A stretch of 13,143 nucleotides of DNA from a virus. Its lineage: Duplodnaviria > Heunggongvirae > Uroviricota > Caudoviricetes. The stretch lies in the IMG/VR virus record IMGVR_UViG_2579778631_000018; one strand, given 5' to 3'. This document shows, piece after piece, positions 1-13,143 of the stretch; within the stretch, counting starts at the first letter, position 1, and each line of letters starts with the position of its first letter. Position numbers and translations under genes: made by a program. The notes below the pieces were generated by a model. The model was not told where the DNA came from. It saw nothing but the letters and a program-made list of their open reading frames with translations, and made no database searches.

Positions 1-996
1 TTATGGACGCATTATGGACATTCCTGACACCGGGTTAAGAGTCACTGCATCTTGTAAGAAATCCGGTGCAAAGTGTGCGTAGGTCATAGTTTGCTGAATG
101 TTAGAATGACCTAGGATGCGCTGCAATGTGATTATGTTACCTCCATTCATTATAAAATGTGTGGCAAATGTATGCCTCAAAACATGCACTGCCTGTCCGT
201 CAGGTAAATCGGGTTTTACTTCCCTGAGAGCGTTACGCACTTTGTAGTAACTGGCATTAAAAAGCCTGCCTGAATTTTTGGTCTTGATCCGTTTAATCAG
301 GTCCTGCGAAACGGGAATTGTCCTGCGCTTTCCGTTTTTAGTTTTCATAAACGTAACCATCTGGTTAATGATGTGTTCAGCTTTTAAATTAGACACTTCA
401 CTCCAGCGTCCACCAGTAGAAAGGCAGACCAGAGTCGCATTTAATTCATCACCATCAAGCATGGATAACAGTCGCGTAATCTCTTCACTGGACAAAAAAG
501 CCATTTCTGTAACAGCTTCACGTAACCGCTTAACCTCACGGAACGGGTTGTGAGAGTGGTATTCACCGGCGTCAATTAACTTGGTGAACATCCCGCTCAT
601 TATTGCCAGATGCCGATTTACGCTGGCTGGTTTTAGACCATCGTTCATCATTACAACGCGATAATCAGTTATCGTTTTCTTTGTTAGCTGGTCAGCTCTG
701 GACACTCCCATTTCTGCAAATTTGGCGATTATTGTCGTTAAACGCCCCCGTTCAATATCTCCACGCTCATGTGATTTTCCGTGATATATCCACCATCTGC
801 CTAACAACTCTGTAAGAGTTCGGCGGTCGGCTGGTTTCTCCAGCCACTCTTTGTTGTGGTAGTTAACCAGTACATGACGTTCGAATGCTTGAGCTTCACC
901 TTTAGTTTTAAATTTTCGCCTGATACGTTTTCCATCTGCACCCTGCGGTCTGACGTCCACTTCATAACGACCATCATCGAGCTTTTTAATAGACAT
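1..996 (-). CDS. int: Tyrosine site-specific integrase, P2-type (331 aa)
   Basis: Complete minus-strand ORF (ATG at 996-994, TAA at 3-1). N-terminus MSIKKLDDGRYEVDVRP... closely parallels phage P2 Int as I recall it. C-terminal catalytic boxes HVLRHTFATH and LGHSNIQQTMTYAHF are typical of tyrosine recombinases. Sits beside the C repressor, as in P2. Confidence 0.9.
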   Translation of the reverse strand: MSIKKLDDGRYEVDVRPQGADGKRIRRKFKTKGEAQAFERHVLVNYHNKEWLEKPADRRTLTELLGRWWIYHGKSHERGDIERGRLTTIIAKFAEMGVSRADQLTKKTITDYRVVMMNDGLKPASVNRHLAIMSGMFTKLIDAGEYHSHNPFREVKRLREAVTEMAFLSSEEITRLLSMLDGDELNATLVCLSTGGRWSEVSNLKAEHIINQMVTFMKTKNGKRRTIPVSQDLIKRIKTKNSGRLFNASYYKVRNALREVKPDLPDGQAVHVLRHTFATHFIMNGGNIITLQRILGHSNIQQTMTYAHFAPDFLQDAVTLNPVSGMSIMRP

Positions 997-1089
997 AAAG
1001 CCCTCCGATGACGCTGTTTACTTCTACTACTTGAAAATTAATGCAATTTTCTTTCGTACATTTACTACACACATATGCTGAATAAATCG

Positions 1090-1389
1090 TCAGCCAGTTT
1101 TCTGGTCTGAGTGGTGCAAGGTTGTTGAGTCTTGCCCAATGTGTGCGAGAGCCGGGGCTATTTGTCCAGCTGCTGGATCTGTTTCATCAAACATGAACCA
1201 GTCACGATACTTGCGAAAGCGTGGATGCTTAAACAGCTTCATACCTGCTTCCATAGGCATTTTTGATTTTCCTGATTCATATCCATGATATGTGTAGTAA
1301 TTAATTCCAATTAATTCAGCAAGTTCCTTAGTTTTAAGGCGTTCGGATTCACGGATGAGCTTTAGTTTTTCACTTTGTTCACTTGACAT
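1090..1389 (-). CDS. C: P2-type immunity repressor C (99 aa)
   Basis: The ORF track begins at an upstream TTG (1407); the in-frame ATG at 1389-1387 with GGAG about 12 nt upstream gives 99 aa. The C-terminal tail GQIAPALAHIGQDSTTLHHSDQKTG matches my recollection of the P2 C tail (GQIAPALAHFGQ...SGQKTG). Divergently oriented to cox, as in the P2 Pc/Pe switch. Confidence 0.8.
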   Translation of the reverse strand: MSSEQSEKLKLIRESERLKTKELAELIGINYYTYHGYESGKSKMPMEAGMKLFKHPRFRKYRDWFMFDETDPAAGQIAPALAHIGQDSTTLHHSDQKTG

Positions 1390-1482
1390 AATTTTGCTAA
1401 TCTCCAATTATATTGTTACTTGGCAATTTGTGATTCACTCAAAAAGGCTCTAGATGGCTCCGGTTGGTGAATCGCAAATCTT
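1390..1482. promoter_or_regulatory. Divergent Pc/Pe promoter-operator region of the lysogeny switch
   Basis: 93-bp gap between the divergent C and cox starts. Contains short repeated elements: ttggcaa/ttggtga, gtgattcac (about 1430-1438), gtgaatcgc (about 1467-1475), and ggctc twice. Operator assignment is positional only. Confidence 0.5.
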
Positions 1483-1854
1483 ATGGAGGATAGCAAAGTG
1501 ACGACAAATGTAGAAATTTCTTGTCCAACTAGCGATGAGGCAAGTTTCGAAAATGAAGCCAAACGTAAAAGCATTCAGATTTCAGAGCGCCCATCTGATT
1601 TGCTGTCGAAAGAAGGTTTTGCTCTTTACATCGGTAAGACACCACGCGCGGTGGCTGAAATGGCTAAAGCAGGAAAGCTGCCAGCCTTCTACATGACAGA
1701 CCCATTAAAACCAAGAGGGAAAGCTGAATTATGGATTAATCGCCGTGAGTGGGACAAGTACGCATCCCAACTGGTTGATGAAGCTCCGACAGAATGGCAT
1801 GACTGGAAAAATCGCATTAGTTACAGCAAATCAAGACATGGCCGTGCGGCTTAA
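1483..1854 (+). CDS. cox: Cox-like excisionase / transcriptional regulator (HTH)
   Basis: First gene of the rightward operon, divergent from C. The segment FALYIGKTPRAVAEMAKAGKLPAFYMTDP resembles the P2 Cox core (AKLIGKSTGAVRRMIDKGKLPVIDMTDP, from memory). The true start may be GTG at 1498, which has a GGAGGA Shine-Dalgarno 7-8 nt upstream; the ATG at 1483 has no obvious SD. Confidence 0.7.
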   Translation: MEDSKVTTNVEISCPTSDEASFENEAKRKSIQISERPSDLLSKEGFALYIGKTPRAVAEMAKAGKLPAFYMTDPLKPRGKAELWINRREWDKYASQLVDEAPTEWHDWKNRISYSKSRHGRAA

Positions 1855-1864
1855 GGTGGAAAGG

Positions 1865-3346: not shown

Positions 3347-3618
3347 GTATTCGTATTGAAATTGGCGAACGTTATGTCGTTACCAGTGACAGCTTCCAGT
3401 TTATTCTCCACGAGAAAAAGAGAGCGGAAAGCGGTAAAAACGCCGGTCAGGAATGGCTGGCGGTGGTTGGTTATTACCCGAAATTAAGCCAGCTTGTTTC
3501 CGGCCTGATGCATCACGATATTCTGACCGGAAGCGCAAAGTCTTTTGCTGATTTAAACGCGCAGGTTGAGCAACTCAGCAGGCGTTGTTCAGAGGCTTTT
3601 GGCTCATATGGCCGTTAA
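3343..3618 (+). CDS. Hypothetical early protein (91 aa; P2 orf83 position)
   Basis: Start overlaps the orf82-like stop; its 3' end overlaps the gene A start by 11 nt. No family recognised. Confidence 0.5.
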   Translation: MSIRIEIGERYVVTSDSFQFILHEKKRAESGKNAGQEWLAVVGYYPKLSQLVSGLMHHDILTGSAKSFADLNAQVEQLSRRCSEAFGSYGR

Positions 3619-5731
3619 AGCCTCCGGGCGTTTTGTCCCTCCGTCAGCATTTGCTGCAGGCACCGGTAAGGCGTTTACCGGTGCTTATGCATGGAACGCG
3701 CCACGCGAGGCCGTCGGGCGCGAAAGACCCCTTACACGTGACGAGATGCGTCAGGTGCAAGGTGTTTTATCCACGATTAACCGCCTGCCTTACTTTTTGC
3801 GCTCGCTGTTTACTTCACGCTATGACTACATCCGGCGCAATAAAAGCCCGGTGCACGGGTTTTATTTCCTCACATCCACTTTTCAGCGTCGTTTATGGCC
3901 GCGCATTGAGCGCGTGAATCAGCGCCATGAAATGAACACCGACGCGTCGTTGCTGTTTCTGGCAGAGCGTGACCATTATGCGCGTCTGCCGGGGATGAAT
4001 GATAAGGAGCTGAAAAAGTTTGCCGCCCGTATCTCATCGCAGCTTTTCATGATGTATGAGGAACTCTGCGATGCCTGGGTGGATGCGCATGGCGAAAAAG
4101 AATCGCTGTTTACGGATGAGGCGCAGGCTCACCTCTATGGTCATGTTGCTGGCGCTGCACGTGCTTTCAATATTTCCCCGCTCTACTGGAAAAAATACCG
4201 TAAAGGACAGATGACCACGAGGCAGGCATATTCTGCCATTGCCCGCCTGTTTAACGATGAGTGGTGGATTAGTCAGCTTAAAGGCCAGCGTATGCGCTGG
4301 CATGAGGCGTTACTGATTGCTGTCGGGGAGGTCAATAAAGACCGTTCACCTTATGCCAGTAAACATGCCATTCGTGATGTGCGTGCACGCCGCCAGGCAA
4401 ATCTGGAATTTCTTAAATCGTGTGACCTTGAAAACAGGGAAACCGGCGAACGCATCGACCTTATCAGTAAGGTGATGGGCAGTATTTCTAATCCTGAAAT
4501 TCGCCGGATGGAGCTGATGAACACCATTGCCGGTATTGAGCGTTACGCCGCCGCAGAGGGTGATGTGGGGATGTTTATCACGCTTACCGCGCCGTCAAAG
4601 TATCACCCGACACGTCAGGTCGGAAAAGGCGAAAGTAAAACCGTCCAGCTAAATCACGGCTGGAACGATGAGGCATTTAATCCAAAGGATGCGCAGCGTT
4701 ATCTCTGCCATATCTGGAGCCTGATGCGCACGGCATTCAAGGATAATGATTTACAGGTCTACGGTTTGCGTGTCGTCGAGCCACACCACGACGGAACGCC
4801 GCACTGGCATATGATGCTTTTTTGTAATCCACGCCAGCGTAACCAGATTATCGAAATCATGCGTCGCTATGCGCTCAAAGAGGATGGCGACGAAAGAGGA
4901 GCCGCGCGAAACCGTTTTCAGGCAAAACATCTTAACCGGGGCGGTGCTGCGGGGTATATCGCAAAATACATCTCAAAAAACATCGATGGCTATGCACTGG
5001 ATGGTCAGCTCGATAATGATACCGGCAGGCCGCTGAAAGATACTGCTGCGGCTGTTACCGCATGGGCGTCAACGTGGCGAATTCCGCAATTTAAAACGGT
5101 TGGCCTGCCGACAATGGGGGCTTACCGTGAACTACGCAAATTGCCTCGCGGCGTCAGTATTGCTGATGAGTTTGACGAACGCGTCGAGGCTGCTCGCGCT
5201 GCCGCAGACAGTGGTGATTTTGCGTTGTATATCAGCGCGCAGGGTGGGGCAAATGTCCCGCGCGATTGTCAGACTGTCAGGGTTGCCCGTAGCCCGTCGG
5301 ATGACGTTAACGAGTACGAGGAAGAAGTCGAGAGAGTGGTCGGCATTTACGCGCCGCATCTCGGCGCGCGTCATATTCATATCACCAGAACGACGGACTG
5401 GCGCATTGTGCCGAAAGTTCCGGTCGTTGAGCCTTTGACTTTAAAAAGCGGCATCGCCGCGCCTCGGAGTCCTGTCAATAACTGTGGAAAACTCACCTGT
5501 GGCGATACTTCGTTACCGGCTCCCACACCTTCTGAGCACGCCGCAGCAGTGCTTAATCTGGTAGATGACGGTGTTATCGAATGGAATGACCCGGAGGTCT
5601 TGAAAGTGCTTAATCTGGCATTGAAAATAGAAGCATCACGTAAATGTACAAACAAAGGAGACACACGAGCAGGCATAGTTGGCGAGTCAACCGCGATTTT
5701 CAATGTACAGGATGCTGATAATCAACAATGA
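3608..5731 (+). CDS. A: Replication initiation endonuclease gpA (HUH rolling-circle initiator, 707 aa)
   Basis: ATG at 3608 with AGAGG 12 nt upstream; the ORF-track start at 3566 is an upstream TTG. N-terminus MAVKASGRFVPPSAFAAGTGK matches my memory of P2 gpA. HUH-type metal motif EPHHDGTPHWHMMLF and the double-tyrosine motif GYIAKYISK (compare phiX174 A protein YVAKYVNK) are present. Confidence 0.9.
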   Translation: MAVKASGRFVPPSAFAAGTGKAFTGAYAWNAPREAVGRERPLTRDEMRQVQGVLSTINRLPYFLRSLFTSRYDYIRRNKSPVHGFYFLTSTFQRRLWPRIERVNQRHEMNTDASLLFLAERDHYARLPGMNDKELKKFAARISSQLFMMYEELCDAWVDAHGEKESLFTDEAQAHLYGHVAGAARAFNISPLYWKKYRKGQMTTRQAYSAIARLFNDEWWISQLKGQRMRWHEALLIAVGEVNKDRSPYASKHAIRDVRARRQANLEFLKSCDLENRETGERIDLISKVMGSISNPEIRRMELMNTIAGIERYAAAEGDVGMFITLTAPSKYHPTRQVGKGESKTVQLNHGWNDEAFNPKDAQRYLCHIWSLMRTAFKDNDLQVYGLRVVEPHHDGTPHWHMMLFCNPRQRNQIIEIMRRYALKEDGDERGAARNRFQAKHLNRGGAAGYIAKYISKNIDGYALDGQLDNDTGRPLKDTAAAVTAWASTWRIPQFKTVGLPTMGAYRELRKLPRGVSIADEFDERVEAARAAADSGDFALYISAQGGANVPRDCQTVRVARSPSDDVNEYEEEVERVVGIYAPHLGARHIHITRTTDWRIVPKVPVVEPLTLKSGIAAPRSPVNNCGKLTCGDTSLPAPTPSEHAAAVLNLVDDGVIEWNDPEVLKVLNLALKIEASRKCTNKGDTRAGIVGESTAIFNVQDADNQQ

Positions 5732-5846
5732 TAGCTATTGTGACTATGCTAACCCTATGAATCTATTGTGTGATTATGAGTAATGACTTTTTCTAATATT
5801 TGATTTTTAATGTAGTAACTTAGCTAATTTTAAAATTTGTAAAAGG
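5732..5846 (+). promoter_or_regulatory. AT-rich intergenic leader, putative promoter of the cargo operon
   Basis: 115 bp of very AT-rich sequence between the A stop and the SIR2 start, with several loose -35/-10-like hexamers (TTGATT ... TAAAAT). AAGGA precedes the ATGs at 5847/5853. No exact promoter call is possible by eye. Confidence 0.35.
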
Positions 5847-7100
5847 ATGTTTATGTCGATTTATCAAGGTGGTAACAAGTTAAATGAGGATGATTTTCGT
5901 TCTCACGTTTATTCCTTGTGTCAATTAGATAATGTTGGCGTTCTGTTAGGTGCTGGTGCTTCTGTCGGTTGTGGTGGGAAAACGATGAAAGATGTATGGA
6001 AATCGTTTAAGCAAAACTACCCTGAGCTTTTGGGAGCACTTATTGATAAATATCTTCTGGTTTCGCAAATTGATTCTGATAACAATTTGGTCAATGTTGA
6101 ACTTTTGATAGATGAAGCAACTAAATTTCTTTCTGTAGCTAAAACTAGACGATGTGAAGATGAAGAGGAGGAATTCAGGAAGATATTAAGTTCATTATAT
6201 AAAGAGGTTACGAAGGCTGCATTATTAACAGGAGAACAGTTTAGAGAGAAAAATCAGGGTAAAAAAGATGCGTTTAAATATCACAAAGAGTTAATTTCAA
6301 AATTAATTTCAAATAGACAGCCCGGTCAGTCGGCTCCGGCAATTTTTACAACAAATTATGATTTGGCCTTAGAGTGGGCTGCAGAAGATTTAGGAATACA
6401 GTTGTTTAATGGTTTTTCTGGGCTACATACACGGCAGTTTTATCCCCAGAATTTTGATTTGGCTTTCAGAAATGTAAATGCGAAGGGCGAAGCAAGATTC
6501 GGACATTATCATGCGTATCTCTATAAATTACATGGCTCACTTACGTGGTATCAAAATGATAGCTTGACTGTTAACGAAGTTAGTGCATCTCAAGCATATG
6601 ATGAATATATTAATGACATAATCAATAAAGATGACTTTTATCGCGGTCAACATTTGATTTATCCAGGGGCGAATAAATATAGCCATACAATCGGCTTCGT
6701 TTATGGAGAGATGTTTAGACGTTTTGGGGAGTTTATTTCGAAACCTCAAACAGCGTTGTTCATAAATGGGTTTGGTTTCGGTGATTATCATATAAATAGA
6801 ATAATATTAGGCGCGTTACTGAATCCATCTTTCCATGTTGTTATATATTATCCTGAATTGGAAGAAGCAATTACCAAAGTAAGTAAGGGTGGCGGTTCGG
6901 AAGCTGAGAAAGCTATTGTTACTTTAAAAAACATGGCTTTCAATCAAGTAACTGTAGTTGGGGGAGGAAGCAAGGCATATTTTAATAGTTTCGTAGAACA
7001 TCTACCATACCCTGTGCTCTTTCCACGAGATAATATTGTTGATGAGTTGGTTGAAGCAATTGCTAATCTTTCTAAAGGAGAAGGTAATGTCCCTTTTTAA
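5847..7100 (+). CDS. SIR2-family (sirtuin-like) NAD-binding protein, defence-associated (about 417 aa)
   Basis: Glycine loop LLGAGAS (aa 33-39, nt 5949-5963), TTNYD (aa 168-172) and LHGS (aa 228-231) occur in the order and spacing of the SIR2 fold. Low-GC gene directly upstream of, and overlapping, a HerA-like ATPase. The start could be ATG 5847 or 5853. Confidence 0.8.
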   Translation: MFMSIYQGGNKLNEDDFRSHVYSLCQLDNVGVLLGAGASVGCGGKTMKDVWKSFKQNYPELLGALIDKYLLVSQIDSDNNLVNVELLIDEATKFLSVAKTRRCEDEEEEFRKILSSLYKEVTKAALLTGEQFREKNQGKKDAFKYHKELISKLISNRQPGQSAPAIFTTNYDLALEWAAEDLGIQLFNGFSGLHTRQFYPQNFDLAFRNVNAKGEARFGHYHAYLYKLHGSLTWYQNDSLTVNEVSASQAYDEYINDIINKDDFYRGQHLIYPGANKYSHTIGFVYGEMFRRFGEFISKPQTALFINGFGFGDYHINRIILGALLNPSFHVVIYYPELEEAITKVSKGGGSEAEKAIVTLKNMAFNQVTVVGGGSKAYFNSFVEHLPYPVLFPRDNIVDELVEAIANLSKGEGNVPF

Positions 7101-8919
7101 ACTTACTGAAATCTCGGCTATTGGATACGTTGTAGGATTAGAAGGGGAAAGAATTAGGATAAACCTGCATGAGGGGTTGCAAGGCAGATTAGCATCGCAT
7201 AGAAAGGGGGTGAGCTCAGTAACGCAACCAGGAGATCTTATTGGGTTCGATGCAGGTAATATATTAGTTGTCGCAAGAGTGACAGATATGGCATTTGTTG
7301 AAGCGGATAAAGCGCATAAGGCAAATGTAGGCACATCTGATTTAGCTGATATACCTCTAAGACAAATTATCGCCTATGCAATTGGCTTTGTGAAAAGGGA
7401 GTTAAATGGTTATGTTTTTATATCAGAAGATTGGCGCTTACCTGCATTGGGTTCTTCTGCTGTTCCTTTGACTTCAGATTTTTTGAACATCATTTATAGT
7501 ATTGATAAAGAAGAACTCCCAAAAGCGGTTGAATTAGGTGTGGATTCTCGAACTAAAACCGTTAAGATATTTGCAAGTGTTGATAAATTATTGTCGCGAC
7601 ACTTAGCCGTTCTTGGTAGTACAGGATATGGTAAATCAAATTTCAATGCTTTGTTAACGAGGAAGGTTTCTGAAAAATACCCTAACTCAAGAATAGTTAT
7701 TTTTGACATAAATGGTGAATACGCGCAAGCTTTTACAGGTATTCCAAATGTAAAGCACACTATTCTAGGGGAATCCCCAAATGTTGATAGTTTGGAAAAA
7801 AATCAGCAAAAGGGTGAGCTATATAGTGAAGAGTATTATTGTTATAAAAAGATACCATATCAGGCATTAGGTTTTGCTGGGTTAATTAAATTATTAAGAC
7901 CAAGTGATAAAACACAATTGCCCGCATTAAGAAATGCATTAAGTGCAATTAATCGGACTCATTTTAAAGGCCGTAATATTTACTTGGAAAAAGATGATGG
8001 TGAAACTTTTCTTTTGTATGATGATTGTCGTGACACAAATCAAAGTAAATTGGCTGAGTGGTTGGATTTATTAAGGCGTAGACGTCTTAAAAGAACGAAT
8101 GTATGGCCACCGTTTAAAAGTTTAGCGACTTTGGTTGCTGAATTTGGATGTGTAGCTGCTGACCGTTCTAATGGAAGTAAACGTGACGCGTTTGGTTTTA
8201 GTAACGTGTTGCCATTGGTAAAAATCATACAACAACTTGCAGAGGATATAAGATTTAAATCTATTGTTAATTTAAATGGAGGGGGTGAGCTAGCAGATGG
8301 TGGAACGCATTGGGATAAAGCTATGAGTGATGAAGTTGATTACTTCTTTGGTAAGGAAAAAGGACAAGAAAATGATTGGAATGTTCATATAGTTAATATG
8401 AAAAATTTGGCACAAGATCATGCTCCAATGTTACTTAGTGCATTGTTGGAGATGTTTGCTGAGATACTATTTAGACGTGGGCAGGAACGTTCGTATCCTA
8501 CGGTACTTTTGTTGGAAGAAGCGCATCATTACCTGCGTGACCCTTATGCTGAAATTGACTCACAGATTAAAGCATATGAACGACTTGCTAAAGAAGGTAG
8601 GAAATTCAAATGCTCTTTAATTGTCAGTACTCAGCGACCCTCAGAGCTTTCTCCTACTGTTTTGGCAATGTGTTCAAACTGGTTTTCGTTACGTTTGACT
8701 AATGAAAGAGATTTACAGGCACTCAGATATGCAATGGAAAGCGGTAATGAACAAATCTTAAAACAAATATCAGGTTTACCAAGAGGTGATGCTGTTGCAT
8801 TTGGTTCTGCATTTAATTTGCCTGTAAGAATTTCAATTAATCAAGCAAGGCCAGGGCCAAAATCTTCAGATGCTGTTTTTTCTGAAGAATGGGCTAATTG
8901 TACAGAATTACGTTGTTAA
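7087..8919 (+). CDS. herA: HerA-family P-loop ATPase, defence-associated (about 610 aa)
   Basis: ATG at 7087 with a strong AAAGGAG SD 6 nt upstream; the ORF-track start at 7036 is a TTG. Walker A GSTGYGKS (nt 7615-7638), downstream VIFDINGEY, Walker B VLLLEEAHHY and LIVSTQRPSEL, all typical of HerA/FtsK-type ATPases. An N-terminal region of about 175 aa before the P-loop is consistent with a HAS-barrel. Confidence 0.8.
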   Translation: MSLFKLTEISAIGYVVGLEGERIRINLHEGLQGRLASHRKGVSSVTQPGDLIGFDAGNILVVARVTDMAFVEADKAHKANVGTSDLADIPLRQIIAYAIGFVKRELNGYVFISEDWRLPALGSSAVPLTSDFLNIIYSIDKEELPKAVELGVDSRTKTVKIFASVDKLLSRHLAVLGSTGYGKSNFNALLTRKVSEKYPNSRIVIFDINGEYAQAFTGIPNVKHTILGESPNVDSLEKNQQKGELYSEEYYCYKKIPYQALGFAGLIKLLRPSDKTQLPALRNALSAINRTHFKGRNIYLEKDDGETFLLYDDCRDTNQSKLAEWLDLLRRRRLKRTNVWPPFKSLATLVAEFGCVAADRSNGSKRDAFGFSNVLPLVKIIQQLAEDIRFKSIVNLNGGGELADGGTHWDKAMSDEVDYFFGKEKGQENDWNVHIVNMKNLAQDHAPMLLSALLEMFAEILFRRGQERSYPTVLLLEEAHHYLRDPYAEIDSQIKAYERLAKEGRKFKCSLIVSTQRPSELSPTVLAMCSNWFSLRLTNERDLQALRYAMESGNEQILKQISGLPRGDAVAFGSAFNLPVRISINQARPGPKSSDAVFSEEWANCTELRC

Positions 8920-9076
8920 TTACCTGATGTACATGGCTAGTGCAAGTTGGTAGCGCATGTCTATATGCATTTATTTGCATGTGTTTTATTGAGTGAGCGC
9001 ACAAGCTTGATGACCCGACAGGTATGTATTTAGACTGAATTTACACCTGCATTAAAACCGCCCCACGAAGCGGGCG

Positions 9077-9095
9077 GGCGAGGCGGGGAAAGCAC
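9077..9095. other. cos site: 19-nt P2-type cohesive-end sequence GGCGAGGCGGGGAAAGCAC
   Basis: Exact match to the P2 cohesive-end sequence as I recall it, located between the cargo genes and Q, where cos lies in a P2 prophage. Confidence 0.75.
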
Positions 9096-9235
9096 TGCGC
9101 GCTGGCGGTGGTGCTGATTTTATTTTTTCAGCGTCTGAGCGCGTCGTGATGGCGTTTAGATTGTTCGCCGGGGCGTTGGTGTGTCTGCGGGATGTTTTGT
9201 GCGGTGGTGAGCGTGTGAGGGCGTGATGACAGGGT

Positions 9236-9258
9236 GTAAAAAGCCGCCCGCAGGCGGC
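9236..9258 (-). terminator. Intrinsic terminator downstream of Q (end of the P-Q late transcript)
   Basis: On the minus strand: GC stem gccgcc / ggcggc with a 4-nt loop, followed by TTTTT, immediately 3' of the Q stop codon (9264-9266). Confidence 0.55.
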
Positions 9259-9263
9259 GATGT

Positions 9264-10298
9264 TCAGCCGTTGTCAGTGTCCAGTGAGTAGTTTTTAAAG
9301 CGGATGACCTCCTGACCTAGCCAGCCGTTTATCTCGCGGATCCTGTCCTGTAACGGGATAAGCTCATTGCGGACAAAGACCTTTGCCACTTTCTCAATAT
9401 CACCCAGCGACCCGACGTTCTCCGGCTTGCCGCCCATCAACTGAAAAGGGATGCGGTGCGCGTCCAGCAGGTCTGCGGCGCTGGCTTTTTTGATATTAAA
9501 AAAATCGTCCTTCGTCGCCACTTCACTGAGCGGGATAATTTTAATGCCGTCGGCTTTCCCCTGTGGGGCATAGAGAAACAGGTTTTTAAAGTTGTTGCGG
9601 CCTTTCGACTTCACCATGTTTTCGCGAAGCATTTCGATATCGTTGCGGTCCTGCACGGCATCGGTGACGTACATGATGTATCCGGCATGTGCGCCGTTTT
9701 CGTAATACTTGCGGCGGAACAGCGTGGCCGACTCATTCAGCCAGGCAGAGTTAAGGGCGCTGAGATATTCCGGCAGGCCGTACAGCTCCTGATTAACATC
9801 GGGCTCCAGCAGGTGAAACACGGAGCCGGGCGCGAAGGCTGTCGGCTCGTTGAAGGACGGCACCCACCAGTAAACATCCTCCTCCACGCCACGGCGGGTA
9901 TATTTTGCCGGTGAGGTTTCCAGTCTGATGACCTTACCGGTGGTGCTGTAACGCTTTTCCAGAAACGCATTACCGAACACCAGAAAATCCAGCACAAAGC
10001 GGCTGAAATCCTGTTGCGAAAGCCACGGATGCGGGATAAATGTCGAGGCCAGAATATTGCGTTTAACGTAAATCGGTGAGCTGTGATGCACGGCAGCACG
10101 CAGGCTTTTCGCCAGACCGGTAAAGCTGACCGGTGGCTCATACCATCTGCCGTTACTGATGCATTCGACGTAATTCAGAATGTCACGGCGGTCGAGTACC
10201 GGTACCGGCTCACCAAAGGTGAATGCCTCCATTTTCGGGGCGCTGGCGGTGATTGTTTTTGCCGCAGGTTGCGGTGTTTTCCCTTTTTTCTTGCTCAT
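9264..10298 (-). CDS. Q: Portal protein gpQ (344 aa)
   Basis: 344 aa, identical in length to P2 gpQ (from memory). Its start codon overlaps the P stop (ATGA) and it lies between cos and P, as in P2. Confidence 0.85.
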   Translation of the reverse strand: MSKKKGKTPQPAAKTITASAPKMEAFTFGEPVPVLDRRDILNYVECISNGRWYEPPVSFTGLAKSLRAAVHHSSPIYVKRNILASTFIPHPWLSQQDFSRFVLDFLVFGNAFLEKRYSTTGKVIRLETSPAKYTRRGVEEDVYWWVPSFNEPTAFAPGSVFHLLEPDVNQELYGLPEYLSALNSAWLNESATLFRRKYYENGAHAGYIMYVTDAVQDRNDIEMLRENMVKSKGRNNFKNLFLYAPQGKADGIKIIPLSEVATKDDFFNIKKASAADLLDAHRIPFQLMGGKPENVGSLGDIEKVAKVFVRNELIPLQDRIREINGWLGQEVIRFKNYSLDTDNG

Positions 10299-12070
10299 CA
10301 GTAAAACTCCAGAATGGTGGATGTCAGCGGGGTGCTGATACCGGCGGTGAGTGGCTCATTTAACAGGGCGTGCATGGTCGCCCAGGCGAGGTCGGCGTGG
10401 CTGGCTTCCTCGCTGCGGCTGGCCTCATAGGTGGCGCTGCGTCCGCTGCTGGTCATGGTCTTGCGGATAGCCATAAACGAGCTGGTGATGTCGGTGGCGC
10501 TGACGTCATATTCCAGACAGCCACGGCGAATAACGTCTTTTGCCTTGAGCACCATTGCGGTTTTCATTTCCGGCGTGTAGCGGATATCGCGCGCGGCGGG
10601 ATAGAACGAGCGCACGAGCTGGAACACGCCGACACCGAGGCCGGTGGCATCAATACCGATGTATTCGACGTTGTATTTTTCGGTGAGTTTGCGGATGGAT
10701 TCCGCCTGAGTGGCAAAGTCCATGCCTTTCCACTGGTGACGCTCAAGTATTCTGAATTTGCCACCGGCCACCACCGGCGGTGCCAGCACCACGCATCCGG
10801 CGCTGTCGCCACGGTGTGACGGGTCGTAACCAATCCATACCGGGCGGGAGCCGAACGGATTGGCGGCAAACGGCGCATAGTCTTCCCATTCTTCCAGCGT
10901 GTCGACCATACAGCGTTGCAGCTCCTCGAACGGGAACACCGACGCCTTGTCGTCAACAAATTCACACATGAACAGGTTTTTAAAATCGTCGGCGCTGTTT
11001 TCGCGTTTGAGCTGCTCAATGTCGAACAGCGTGCAGCCGCCTTTCAGCGCGTCCTCAATGGTGACAATCTGCCGCCACTGGCCGTCCGCACAGAGAAGCC
11101 CACCGGCAAGGGCGTTATGACTGACGTCGATTTCCACGCGTTCGGCGGCGCTGGCGCGTCCCCGGTTGAACAGTTCACCCGACCAGAACGGGTAGGCGTC
11201 GTGCGCCAGCGTGGACGGGGTGGAGAAATAGGTCGATCGCAGGTGACTCTGTGAGGCCATACCTGATGCCACCTTACGCAGCACCTGAAAATTCGGGATC
11301 CAGAAAATCTCGTCGACGTACAGGTCGCCGTTATGGCTCTGTGCGGTGTTGGAGTTGGTGCCGAGAAAAATCAGTTTTGCGCCGTTATTGCCCAGGACAA
11401 TCGGGTCACCGGTCAGGTCAACGTCAACCAGCCGGGCAAAGGCGATGATGTATTCGCGGAACACATACGCCTGCGTTTTACTGGCCGACAGAAAAATCTG
11501 GTTATGACCGGTTTTCAGGGCGCGCAGCAGCGCCTCGCGGGAAAAATAAAACGTCGCGCCAATCTGGCGGGATTTCAGGATATCGCGGATGCGGTGCTCA
11601 AGCCCGGCGCGATACCAGTGCAACTGATATTCGAAAGACTGCTCAAAGAAAATCTGCTCCAGCTTTTCGATGGCCTCGTCGCTGAAAAAATTCTTTTTCG
11701 GTTTGCGACGCCCGCCTTTGTTGCGGTTAGCGACGTTCGGATTAAGGTCTGCTTCGTTGCCGGTCTGGCTGTAGCGGTTGACCCGTGCCAGTCGTTCAAT
11801 CTGGCGTCCGAGCAGGTCAATTTCCTTGAAGTCACCGCCGGTTTTCTGCGGTTTGATGATGAGCTGGGTCAGCCGCGCTTCCAGACTCATTTCGACACGG
11901 CTGATGGGGGCAACGCTGTCCCAGCCGTCGCGCTGTTTCCAGCTCTGCACCGTCGGGCGTTTCATCTGCAACATGGCGGCAATCTGCGGCACGGAAAACC
12001 CCTGCCAGTACAGCAGCGCCGCCTGACGACGCGGGTCGTGTAAAAGAGTGGTGTCTGTGGTGATGGTCAT
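10298..12070 (-). CDS. P: Terminase large (ATPase) subunit gpP (590 aa)
   Basis: ATG at 12070-12068 with GAGG 8 nt upstream gives 590 aa, the P2 gpP length as I recall; the ORF track extends to an upstream TTG at 12100. Gene order cos-Q-P is conserved. Confidence 0.85.
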   Translation of the reverse strand: MTITTDTTLLHDPRRQAALLYWQGFSVPQIAAMLQMKRPTVQSWKQRDGWDSVAPISRVEMSLEARLTQLIIKPQKTGGDFKEIDLLGRQIERLARVNRYSQTGNEADLNPNVANRNKGGRRKPKKNFFSDEAIEKLEQIFFEQSFEYQLHWYRAGLEHRIRDILKSRQIGATFYFSREALLRALKTGHNQIFLSASKTQAYVFREYIIAFARLVDVDLTGDPIVLGNNGAKLIFLGTNSNTAQSHNGDLYVDEIFWIPNFQVLRKVASGMASQSHLRSTYFSTPSTLAHDAYPFWSGELFNRGRASAAERVEIDVSHNALAGGLLCADGQWRQIVTIEDALKGGCTLFDIEQLKRENSADDFKNLFMCEFVDDKASVFPFEELQRCMVDTLEEWEDYAPFAANPFGSRPVWIGYDPSHRGDSAGCVVLAPPVVAGGKFRILERHQWKGMDFATQAESIRKLTEKYNVEYIGIDATGLGVGVFQLVRSFYPAARDIRYTPEMKTAMVLKAKDVIRRGCLEYDVSATDITSSFMAIRKTMTSSGRSATYEASRSEEASHADLAWATMHALLNEPLTAGISTPLTSTILEFY

Positions 12071-12243: not shown

Positions 12244-12360
12244 ATGGCAAAAAAAGTCTCAAAATTCTTTCGTATCGGCGTTGCGTATTTTCATGAAAGG
12301 AGATCACTCAATAACTTCCATCGAGATCGGGTAATAACATTTGAACAGATCGCTGAATAA
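12244..12360 (+). pseudogene. O: Capsid scaffold gene O, truncated by insertion (first about 13 codons intact)
   Basis: ATG at 12244 encodes MAKKVSKFFRIGV, which matches the P2 gpO N-terminus as I recall it (MAKKVSKFFRIGVEG...). The frame then reads unrelated sequence and stops at 12358-12360. The ORF-track start at 12178 is an upstream in-frame ATG, probably not used. Confidence 0.65.
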
Positions 12361-12419
12361 CATCGATGGAGATCACTTTTGACTCATTTTGTTATTCAGT
12401 GATCTCCATCAATGTTATT
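12354..12419. repeat. Imperfect inverted repeat of about 22 bp (tgaataacatcgatggagatcac / its complement, 1 mismatch), 20-bp spacer
   Basis: Read directly from the sequence: 12354-12377 versus 12398-12419. A further direct copy of ggagatcact lies at about 12299-12308. Lies in the presumed IS terminal region, upstream of istA. Confidence 0.6.
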
Positions 12420-12474
12420 GGAACTTCACAGGTGTGTTGATCTGTATCTTTTGCCATTCCGGTAAAGGATACCT

Positions 12475-13143
12475 ATGCCAACAGTTCCAATTTCTATGAG
12501 AAAACTTAAAGAAATTCTTAGGCTTAAATACGGTGTTGGACTCAGCCATCGACAAATTGGTCGTAGTCTTGCAATCTCCCCTTCCGTTGTATCCAGATAT
12601 GCTAATCGGGCGGCTCAACTTGGCATAAAGCAGTGGCCCTTACCTACAGGATGGGATGATACAAAACTAAAACATGCGTTCCTTCAGACCCAGGTTAAGA
12701 TGAAGAAGCACTCTCTGCCTGACTGGGCTACAGTACACCGGGAACTGCGTAATAAATGCGTGACGCTGCAGCTACTCTGGGAAGAATACTGTGAGCGTAA
12801 TCCAGGCGGTTTTTACAGCTATAACCATTACTGCCGGATGTACCGTGAATGGCTCAAAACCACTTCACCATCAATGCGTCAGGTACATAAAGCTGGCGAA
12901 AAACTTTTCGTTGATTACTGTGGACCTACCGTTGGCGTTACCGACCCTGAGACCGGAGAAATAAGAACTGCTCAGGTCATCGTAGCTGTTCTCGGGGCAT
13001 CAAGTTACACATGGGCAGAGGCCACCTGGTCTCAGCAGCTTGAAGACTGGGTGATGAGTCATGTTCGCTGCTTCCAGTGGTTGGGTGGCGTTCCTGAACT
13101 TGTTGTTCCGGACAATCTGAAAAGCGCCACATCCAGGGCATGT
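12475..13143 (+). CDS. istA: IS21-family transposase IstA, N-terminal 223 codons (3' partial)
   Basis: ATG at 12475 with AAAGGA 5 nt upstream; the frame is open to the window end. N-terminal HTH MPTVPISMRKLKEILRLKYGVGLSHRQIGRSLAISPSVVSRY is characteristic of IstA, followed by the start of the DDE core (KLFVDYCGPTVGV...). Absent from the ORF track because no stop falls in the window. Confidence 0.8.
   Translation, partial: MPTVPISMRKLKEILRLKYGVGLSHRQIGRSLAISPSVVSRYANRAAQLGIKQWPLPTGWDDTKLKHAFLQTQVKMKKHSLPDWATVHRELRNKCVTLQLLWEEYCERNPGGFYSYNHYCRMYREWLKTTSPSMRQVHKAGEKLFVDYCGPTVGVTDPETGEIRTAQVIVAVLGASSYTWAEATWSQQLEDWVMSHVRCFQWLGGVPELVVPDNLKSATSRAC

What the first reader, a model, noticed from the sequence alone, without database searches (positions are those of the whole stretch)
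5847..8919. SIR2 + HerA (Nezha-type) anti-phage defence operon carried as prophage cargo
Two co-directional, overlapping genes. The first has the SIR2 motif triad in canonical order: LLGAGAS glycine loop, TTNYD, and LHGS with the catalytic His. The second has HerA hallmarks: Walker A GSTGYGKS, FDINGEY, Walker B EEAH and STQRP. SIR2+HerA is a described defence class (first listed by Gao et al. 2020, later called Nezha) that acts through NAD+ depletion and nuclease activity; the mechanism is established knowledge, not something the sequence shows. The pairing sits in the best-known defence hotspot of P2-like prophages. I cannot tell whether this is a typical member or a divergent subtype. If the first protein proves to be DUF4297-like rather than SIR2, the alternative is the DUF4297-HerA class.
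Basis: partly seen in the sequence, partly recalled or inferred. Interest (0 to 1): 0.85.

Follow-up and report, generated by a model that had tools for sequence, protein, structure and literature searches.

The report
Known E. coli SIR2-HerA (Nezha) defence operon
This is the already well-studied E. coli SIR2-HerA ("Nezha") anti-phage system, differing by only three amino acids from the proteins whose structures are solved, and it sits in the usual defence hotspot of a P2-like prophage, so it is real but ordinary.

Summary
Two co-directional, overlapping genes encode a SIR2-family protein (window 5853-7100, 415 aa) and a HerA ATPase (7087-8919, 610 aa).

- **Profile matches.** Both match their defence-specific profiles overwhelmingly: PADLOC SIR2 4e-190 and HerA 4e-277. 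The Pfam families SIR2_2 and DUF87 both score above their cut-offs.
- **Not a divergent subtype.** SIR2 is 414/415 identical, and HerA 608/610 identical, to the E. coli chains in PDB 8J4U, 8SU9 and related entries. These are WP_021577683.1 and WP_021577682.1 of strain NCTC11129. That system was tested against phage by Gao et al. 2020 and later characterised biochemically and by cryo-EM.
- **Motifs.** All catalytic motifs are intact. The three substitutions lie outside them.
- **Setting.** The 3.4-kb, low-GC cassette lies between replication gene A and the cos site/portal gene Q of a P2-like prophage. Rousset et al. 2022 already list "SIR2 | DUF87" as the 14th commonest cargo at this hotspot.
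- **Corrections.** SIR2 starts at the second ATG (5853). HerA starts at ATG 7087, not TTG 7036, so the overlap is 14 nt.

The cassette replaces the last ~88 codons of gene A, and the prophage is defective because ISEc12 is inserted in gene O. Novelty: already known. Interest: low.

The parts
5604..9047 (.). Cargo cassette in the P2-like hotspot. It is a low-GC segment (about 37%, against 48-56% in the flanks) that is absent from P2-like prophages carrying other cargo.
   Evidence: Homology to the EC45 P2-like prophage stops at 5603 and resumes at 9048. Homology to P2-type phages resumes at about 9044. GC profile.
5853..7100 (+). SIR2-family NADase gene (415 aa). It is 414/415 identical to PDB 8J4U chain A / WP_021577683.1; the one difference is E337 in place of K.
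5943..5963 (+). SIR2 glycine-rich NAD-binding loop, LLGAGAS (aa 31-37).
   Evidence: identical in the solved chain.
6348..6362 (+). SIR2 TTNYD motif, containing active-site N168.
   Evidence: N168 is named as a conserved NADase active-site residue in an alignment to E. coli SIR2 in PMC11559045.
6528..6539 (+). SIR2 LHGS motif, containing catalytic H227.
   Evidence: PMC11559045.
7087..8919 (+). HerA ATPase/helicase gene (610 aa). It is 608/610 identical to PDB 8J4U chain M / WP_021577682.1; the differences are N239 in place of K and G295 in place of S. Its start overlaps the SIR2 stop by 14 nt.
7615..7638 (+). HerA Walker A motif, GSTGYGKS (K183).
8515..8526 (+). HerA Walker B motif, (LLL)EEAH (E477/E478).
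8626..8640 (+). HerA STQRP motif. It is conserved in the HerA of the Paenibacillus SIR2-HerA system.
   Evidence: alignment.
3608..5731 (+). P2 replication endonuclease gene A (707 aa). It forms the left flank of the hotspot. The canonical last ~88 residues are replaced by ~34 unrelated residues that belong to the cassette.
   Evidence: RefSeq marks the same gene 'missing C-terminus' in CP66-6 and NCTC11129.
9077..9095 (+). Exact match to the 19-nt sequence I recalled as the P2/P4 cohesive end (cos), GGCGAGGCGGGGAAAGCAC. It lies immediately right of the cassette.
   Evidence: 0 mismatches and 0 hits in 200 shuffles. The pattern itself comes from my own knowledge. The cos-proximal location of the hotspot is described in PMC9122126.
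9264..10298 (-). Portal protein gene Q, the right flank of the hotspot.
   Evidence: TIGR01540, 2.7e-74; annotation of homologous loci.
10298..12070 (-). Terminase ATPase subunit gene P.
   Evidence: Annotation of 98%-identical loci.
12284..13143 (+). Left end of an IS21-family ISEc12 element. It is inserted after codon 13 of scaffold gene O, whose ATG is at 12244, so the prophage is defective.

Best explanation
Window 5853-8919 is a two-gene SIR2-HerA (Nezha) anti-phage operon. It is an allele of the E. coli NCTC11129 system that has been characterised experimentally.

**Mechanism, from published work on proteins that differ from these by three residues.** Twelve SIR2 and six HerA subunits assemble into a ~1 MDa complex. 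Assembly switches on the SIR2 NADase, which splits NAD+ into ADP-ribose and nicotinamide. It also switches on the ATPase/helicase activity of HerA. The complex has a DNA nuclease activity that ATP inhibits. On infection NAD+ is depleted, the infected cell stops supporting phage replication, and the infection aborts. How infection is sensed is not settled; a fall in ATP has been proposed.

**Shown here.**
- Gene order, the 14-nt overlap and intact reading frames.
- Intact catalytic residues: SIR2 N168 and H227; HerA Walker A K183 and Walker B E477/E478.
- Near-identity to the solved chains.
- Location as a 3.4-kb low-GC cassette between gene A and cos/gene Q of a P2-like prophage.

**Inferred.**
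- This allele (SIR2 K337E; HerA K239N, S295G) is active.
- It is expressed from its own promoter in the lysogen.
- It still protects the host even though the prophage is crippled by an IS in gene O.
For: - **Defence-specific profiles.** PADLOC SIR2 PDLC02186 4.4e-190 and HerA PDLC02185 3.7e-277, both end to end.
- **General profiles.** Pfam SIR2_2 and DUF87 are above their gathering scores. NCBIfam SIR2_antiphage scores 507 bits against a cut-off of 500.
- **Solved structures.** SIR2 matches 8j4u_A (also 8su9, 8sub, 8suw, 8sxx, 8uae, 8uaf) at 6e-284 with one substitution. HerA matches 8j4u_M at E=0 with two substitutions. The residue differences were confirmed against NCTC11129.
- **Link to the studied system.** The NCTC11129 locus is annotated WP_021577683.1 + WP_021577682.1. 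PMC11472057 used exactly those accessions for EcSIR2-HerA. PMC11514289 states that Sir2-HerA of E. coli NCTC 11129 protects against lambda, citing Gao et al. 2020.
- **Mechanism.** 12:6 stoichiometry with NADase, helicase and nuclease activities, from PMC11559045. ATP-inhibited nuclease activity also shown for EcSIR2-HerA, from PMC11472057. The ATP-sensing model is from PMC11514289.
- **Context.** gpA on the left; exact P2 cos; portal and terminase on the right.
- **Hotspot literature.** The hotspot is described in PMC9122126 and PMC9519451. 'SIR2 | DUF87 - SIR2 + HerA (Gao et al., 2020)' is listed as P2-hotspot system no. 14 with 188 occurrences.
Against: - Nothing contradicts the identification.
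- No convincing sigma-70 promoter was found in the 5732-5852 spacer by the consensus scan, so expression in the lysogen is assumed rather than shown.
- The HerA score against NCBIfam HerA_antiphage (709 bits) is below that model's curated cut-off of 800. The model is still by far the best match, and the reference protein is nearly identical, so this reflects the cut-off rather than the protein.
- K337E is a charge reversal of unknown effect.
- The activity of this exact allele has not been tested.
Confidence: 0.95

Rival explanations
1. The first gene is a DUF4297-type effector, making this a DUF4297-HerA system.
For: HerA partners with either effector in known defence systems (PMC12198126 title and abstract). 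The window HerA has weak similarity to HerA chains from other solved complexes.
Against: Pfam reports only SIR2_2 for protein 1 and no DUF4297. All 25 listed PADLOC hits for protein 1 are SIR2 or Aga_SIR2 models. NCBIfam SIR2_antiphage is above its cut-off. The protein is 414/415 identical to a chain deposited as 'SIR2-like domain-containing protein'.
Confidence: 0
2. The operon is a decaying, non-functional copy that merely survives in a dead prophage.
For: The prophage is defective. ISEc12 interrupts gene O after codon 13, and gene A lacks its canonical C-terminus. The allele carries three substitutions relative to the studied one, including a charge reversal, K337E. No clear promoter was found.
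Against: Both reading frames are full length with no frameshift or stop. All catalytic motifs are intact. The substitutions fall outside the motifs. G295 also occurs in the divergent P2-hotspot HerA printed in Rousset's table ('RTHFEGSNFY'), and N239 occurs in strain CP66-6. DNA identity to the 20 other genomic copies is 99.3-99.6% over the whole cassette, including the upstream spacer.
Confidence: 0.04
3. The pair has a housekeeping or phage-lifecycle role, for example HerA-type DNA end processing or DNA pumping during replication or packaging, with a sirtuin-type protein deacylase, rather than a defence role.
For: HerA belongs to the FtsK-HerA pumping ATPases. There are weak hits to repair-type HerA (NF040819, 95 bits; PDB 4d2i) and to TrwB/FtsK families. 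The genes lie next to cos and the packaging genes.
Against: The scores to repair HerA models are an order of magnitude below their cut-offs (95 against 970), and no NurA partner is present. The cassette is absent from almost all P2-like prophages and from all 50,697 phage records, so it is accessory rather than part of the lifecycle. The near-identical proteins have published NADase-based anti-phage activity.
Confidence: 0.01

Closest known systems
E. coli NCTC11129 SIR2-HerA, 'EcSir2-HerA' / Nezha (WP_021577683.1 + WP_021577682.1; PDB 8J4U, 8SU9, 8SUB, 8SUW, 8SXX, 8UAE, 8UAF)
   Same: Gene order, 14-nt overlap and protein lengths (415 and 610 aa) are the same. All motifs are the same. Cassette DNA is 99.4% identical. 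The insertion site between gpA and cos/gpQ of a P2-like prophage is the same, and so is the cassette-linked replacement of the gpA C-terminus.
   Different: Three amino-acid substitutions: SIR2 K337E; HerA K239N and S295G. The carrying prophage has a different integrase/immunity region (window 1-1864 is not matched in NCTC11129) and an ISEc12 insertion in gene O.
Other solved SIR2-HerA systems: Paenibacillus sp. 453MF (8W9L, 8WLD and related) and Staphylococcus aureus (8YHO, 8YHX)
   Same: Two-gene architecture, SIR2 NADase plus HerA ring, and supramolecular assembly.
   Different: They are only distantly related in sequence. SIR2 E-values are 1e-10 to 1e-17 over the core; HerA E-values are 1e-25 to 1e-32. 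Reported stoichiometry and activities differ: PsSIR2 forms a 14-mer in the complex, and no ATPase activity was detected for SaSir2-HerA.
The divergent SIR2 | DUF87 variant listed for the P2 hotspot by Rousset et al. 2022 (Table S5B, system 14)
   Same: Same hotspot and same architecture, and a clearly homologous HerA (MSHFKLSELSAIGYVVGLEGEKIRINLHEGL...).
   Different: The representative printed there differs at many positions from the window's HerA, so several alleles of this system circulate in P2-like prophages.
old and tin of phage P2
   Same: They occupy the same cos-proximal gpA-gpQ locus and are likewise accessory phage-exclusion genes carried by the prophage.
   Different: The proteins and mechanisms are unrelated.

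Membership tests
SIR2-HerA (Nezha) defence system | Two adjacent, co-directional genes: a SIR2-like gene followed by a HerA gene. | tested here: met
   5853-7100 (+) and 7087-8919 (+), with a 14-nt overlap.
SIR2-HerA (Nezha) defence system | Protein 1 matches SIR2-like domain profiles above the curated thresholds. | tested here: met
   PF13289 40.3 bits against 24.5. NF042942 SIR2_antiphage 507 against 500. PADLOC SIR2 4.4e-190.
SIR2-HerA (Nezha) defence system | Protein 2 matches HerA/DUF87 profiles. | tested here: met
   PF01935 73.6 bits against 23.2. PADLOC HerA 3.7e-277 over the full length.
SIR2-HerA (Nezha) defence system | Protein 2 reaches the NCBIfam equivalog cut-off for 'anti-phage-associated helicase HerA'. 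| tested here: not met
   NF042943 is the best match at 709.4 bits, below the cut-off of 800. The structurally solved reference protein is 99.7% identical. RefSeq names it only 'ATP-binding protein', so the shortfall reflects the model's cut-off and not the protein.
SIR2-HerA (Nezha) defence system | Catalytic residues are present: SIR2 Asn/His of the NADase site, and HerA Walker A Lys and Walker B acidic residues. | tested here: met
   N168 (TTNYD), H227 (LHGS), K183 (GSTGYGKS) and E477/E478 (EEAH). All align identically in the solved chains. N168/H227 are named as conserved active-site residues in PMC11559045.
SIR2-HerA (Nezha) defence system | Close sequence relationship to an experimentally validated member. 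| tested here: met
   414/415 and 608/610 identity to the NCTC11129 / PDB 8J4U proteins. Validation is reported in PMC11514289 and PMC11472057.
SIR2-HerA (Nezha) defence system | 12:6 supramolecular assembly, assembly-activated NADase activity, and phage protection. | not testable with these tools
   Published for the reference allele. Not measured for this allele.
DUF4297-HerA defence system | The HerA partner carries a DUF4297 domain. | tested here: not met
   There is no DUF4297 hit; the partner is SIR2.
HerA-NurA DNA-end-resection machinery | HerA is paired with a NurA nuclease and reaches the repair-HerA equivalog score. | tested here: not met
   There is no NurA gene. NF040819 scores 95.5 bits against 970, and NF040937 scores 93.5 against 800.
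Cargo of the P2-like gpA-gpQ (old/tin) defence hotspot | Located between replication gene A and cos/portal gene Q of a P2-like prophage. The backbone is conserved on both sides and the middle is variable. | tested here: met
   gpA is 98% identical to the EC45 copy up to residue 673. Exact P2 cos at 9077-9095. Portal and terminase on the right. EC45 carries different cargo (Dcm methyltransferase, a hypothetical protein and a ParB-N protein) between the same flanks. The hotspot is defined in PMC9122126.

The most novel reading that the evidence does not exclude
The least ordinary reading not excluded concerns the cassette-linked replacement of the last ~88 residues of replication protein gpA. 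This replacement is found only, and always, with this SIR2-HerA cassette: the same 20 of 5,426 complete genomes hold both.

It might be functionally meaningful rather than a neutral recombination scar. For example, it could alter prophage replication, or couple cassette expression to the early operon. Alternatively, the three-residue allele (SIR2 K337E; HerA K239N, S295G) could change regulation or phage range relative to the studied allele.
Probability: 0.07. Interest if true: 0.3.

Novelty: already known. Interest (0 to 1): 0.08.

Why it matters
It matters little for discovery. The system, its structure, its enzymatic activities and its residence in the P2 hotspot are all published.

Its value is as a clean annotation. 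It identifies the window as a defective P2-like prophage carrying an intact allele of the reference Nezha system. It also provides natural variants (SIR2 K337E; HerA K239N, S295G) that could be compared with the studied allele.

It shows in addition that RefSeq still labels the HerA partner only as 'ATP-binding protein', because the protein falls under the NCBIfam cut-off.

Tried and rejected
- **DUF4297-HerA alternative.** Rejected on the profile searches.
- **Rfam scan of the whole window.** No RNA family reached its gathering score, so there is no known RNA component.
- **Promoter and terminator scan of 5600-9300.** The number of promoter-like sites was no higher than in shuffles (11 against 11.2). 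None lay in the 5732-5852 spacer, and there was no clear terminator directly after HerA. The operon's own promoter therefore remains unidentified.
- **Search of 50,697 phage records.** Neither DNA nor protein searches found any isolated phage carrying this system. Only the backbone right of 9044 matches P2-type phages, and the HerA protein hits were distant terminase-like ATPases.
- **Shen et al. 2023 (PMC11418745).** The paper is not held, and Tang et al. 2023 was not available either. Their findings are cited second-hand through PMC11559045, PMC11514289 and PMC11472057.
- **Structure prediction and the large homology searches.** I did not run these. Solved structures of proteins at least 99.7% identical make them redundant.
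Full report

Yes. The six-frame ORF list shows two long + strand ORFs at 5847-7100 and 7036-8919.

- In SIR2 (415-aa numbering): LLGAGAS at aa 31-37, TTNYD at 166-170 and LHGS at 226-229.
- In HerA: GSTGYGKS at 177-184, FDINGEY at 206-212, EEAH at 477-480 and STQRP at 514-518.

Two starts need correcting. For SIR2, the ATG at 5847 overlaps the ribosome-binding site AAGGA (5843-5847), while the ATG at 5853 lies 5 nt downstream of it. The RefSeq annotations and the crystallised or cryo-EM chain both begin at MSIYQ. For HerA, the TTG at 7036 is merely the first possible start. The ATG at 7087 follows AAAGGAGAAGG and is the start of both the annotated and the solved protein. The genes therefore overlap by 14 nt (7087-7100), which suggests translational coupling.

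**2. What is it?**

Profile searches are unambiguous.

- Pfam: SIR2_2 (PF13289) 4.3e-10 and HerA central domain DUF87 (PF01935) 3.3e-20, both above their gathering scores.
- PADLOC defence models: SIR2 PDLC02186 4.4e-190 (aa 2-414 of 417) and HerA PDLC02185 3.7e-277 (aa 7-605 of 610).
- NCBIfam: SIR2_antiphage NF042942 at 507 bits against a cut-off of 500. HerA_antiphage NF042943 is by far the best HerA model, but at 709 bits it is below its cut-off of 800. That explains why RefSeq calls the protein only 'ATP-binding protein'.

The decisive result is the comparison with solved structures. SIR2 matches chain 8j4u_A (the same sequence as in 8su9, 8sub, 8suw, 8sxx, 8uae and 8uaf) at 6e-284, with one substitution over 415 residues. 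HerA matches 8j4u_M at E=0, with two substitutions over 610.

The same cassette occurs in E. coli NCTC11129 at 99.4% DNA identity (H16). There the genes are annotated WP_021577683.1 and WP_021577682.1. A direct comparison gives SIR2 E337 in place of K, and HerA N239 in place of K and G295 in place of S, and nothing else.

PMC11472057 states that it used exactly those two accessions as 'E. coli SIR2-HerA'. PMC11514289 states that Sir2-HerA of E. coli NCTC 11129 protects against lambda, citing Gao et al. 2020, and that the EcSir2-HerA structures revealed assembly-mediated activation. So the window carries an allele of the reference system, not a divergent subtype.

**3. Surroundings.**

The window is a P2-like prophage. 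Its parts, from left to right:

- tyrosine integrase (1-996, - strand);
- an HTH repressor-like gene (1090-1407, - strand);
- early genes;
- replication endonuclease gpA (3608-5731);
- the cassette;
- the exact 19-nt P2 cos sequence at 9077-9095 (0 hits in 200 shuffles);
- portal gpQ (9264-10298, - strand; TIGR01540 2.7e-74);
- terminase gpP (10298-12070, - strand);
- the start of scaffold gene O (ATG at 12244).

Gene identities are supported by the annotation of ~98%-identical loci.

The cassette boundaries are 5603/5604 and 9047/9048. They come from comparison with the EC45 P2-like prophage, which carries quite different cargo between the same flanks: a Dcm methyltransferase, a hypothetical protein and a ParB-N protein. 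GC content is about 37% inside the cassette against 48-56% outside.

This is the cos-proximal gpA-gpQ hotspot described by Rousset et al. 2022 (PMC9122126) and by Vassallo et al. 2022 (PMC9519451). Rousset's Table S5B lists 'SIR2 | DUF87 - SIR2 + HerA (Gao et al., 2020)' as the 14th most abundant system of the P2 hotspot, with 188 occurrences. Its representative HerA is a more divergent relative of the one here.

In the complete-genome collection, 20 of 5,426 E. coli genomes carry this cassette at 99.3-99.6% identity, all on chromosomes. None of 50,697 phage records does, whether searched by DNA or by protein.

**4. How it works.**

The following rests on published work with the near-identical proteins and was not shown here.

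- Twelve SIR2 and six HerA subunits form a ~1 MDa complex.
- Assembly activates the SIR2 NADase and the HerA ATPase/helicase.
- The complex also has a nuclease activity that ATP inhibits.
- NAD+ depletion is the critical step, because SIR2 active-site mutants (N168A, H227A) and herA deletion abolish defence in a homologous Vibrio system (PMC11559045; PMC11472057).
- The infection signal is unresolved. A drop in ATP has been proposed (PMC11514289).

The sequence itself shows intact frames, intact catalytic residues and substitutions outside the motifs. G295 also occurs in the divergent hotspot variant, and N239 occurs in strain CP66-6. Both are natural variants.

Three things are inferred. The allele is active. 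It is expressed in the lysogen, although no convincing promoter was found. And it still serves the host even though the prophage is dead.

**5. Rivals.**

- DUF4297-HerA is refuted.
- A decaying copy in a dead prophage is possible but unlikely, given full-length frames and 99.3-99.6% conservation across 20 genomes.
- A housekeeping or packaging role is contradicted by the accessory distribution and by scores far below the repair-HerA cut-offs.

**6. Novelty and verdict.**

Already known. However, both the system and its P2-hotspot location are established, and this copy is within three residues of the structurally solved reference. Interest is low (0.08).

The only mildly unusual points are side observations:

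- the cassette-linked replacement of the gpA C-terminus;
- the identical ISEc12/gene O junction shared with a prophage that carries different cargo;
- the NCBIfam cut-off that leaves the reference HerA unnamed.

Noticed in passing
window 5604-5731 (3' end of gene A, 3608-5731): The canonical last ~88 residues of P2 replication protein gpA (761 aa in EC45) are replaced by ~34 unrelated residues that belong to the low-GC cassette. This junction sequence occurs in exactly the same 20 complete E. coli genomes that hold SIR2-HerA. RefSeq marks the gene as a pseudogene ('missing C-terminus') in CP66-6 and NCTC11129. It is unknown whether the 707-aa gpA is functional.
   Followed up: partly
window 12244-13143: An IS21-family ISEc12 element is inserted after codon 13 of scaffold gene O, with the junction at 12283/12284, so this prophage cannot make capsids. 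Strain EC45 has the identical junction but carries different hotspot cargo. Its flanking backbone is only 97.5-98.2% identical to the window. This suggests either cargo or segment exchange by recombination among P2-like prophages, or a preferred IS target.
   Followed up: partly
window 1-1864: The integrase/immunity end (integrase 1-996, HTH repressor-like 1090-1407, and the 123-aa ORF 1483-1854) is not shared with most SIR2-HerA-carrying prophages. Their homology starts at 1865, and only strain A17 matches from position 1. The cassette therefore sits on mosaic P2-like backbones with different immunity and integration modules. The 105-aa and 123-aa proteins gave no NCBIfam hit.
   Followed up: partly
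window 7087-8919: This HerA is 99.7% identical to the structurally solved reference. It nevertheless scores 709 bits against NCBIfam NF042943 'anti-phage-associated helicase HerA', whose cut-off is 800, and RefSeq names it only 'ATP-binding protein'. The model's cut-off excludes the archetype.
   Followed up: no
window 5604-9047 against the phage collection: No isolated or deposited phage genome among 50,697 records carries this cassette or a close HerA relative, although it is a recurrent P2-prophage cargo. Together with the altered gpA, this raises the question of whether prophages carrying it are still viable phages.
   Followed up: partly
window 9058-9114: GC-rich hairpins flank the cos site: CCGCCCCACGAAGCGGGCGG at 9058-9077, which on the - strand is followed by a T-run, and GCGCTGGCGGTGGTGC at 9099-9114, followed by TGATTTTATT on the + strand. 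They may serve as terminators for the converging HerA and gpQ transcripts, or be part of the cos recognition region.
   Followed up: no
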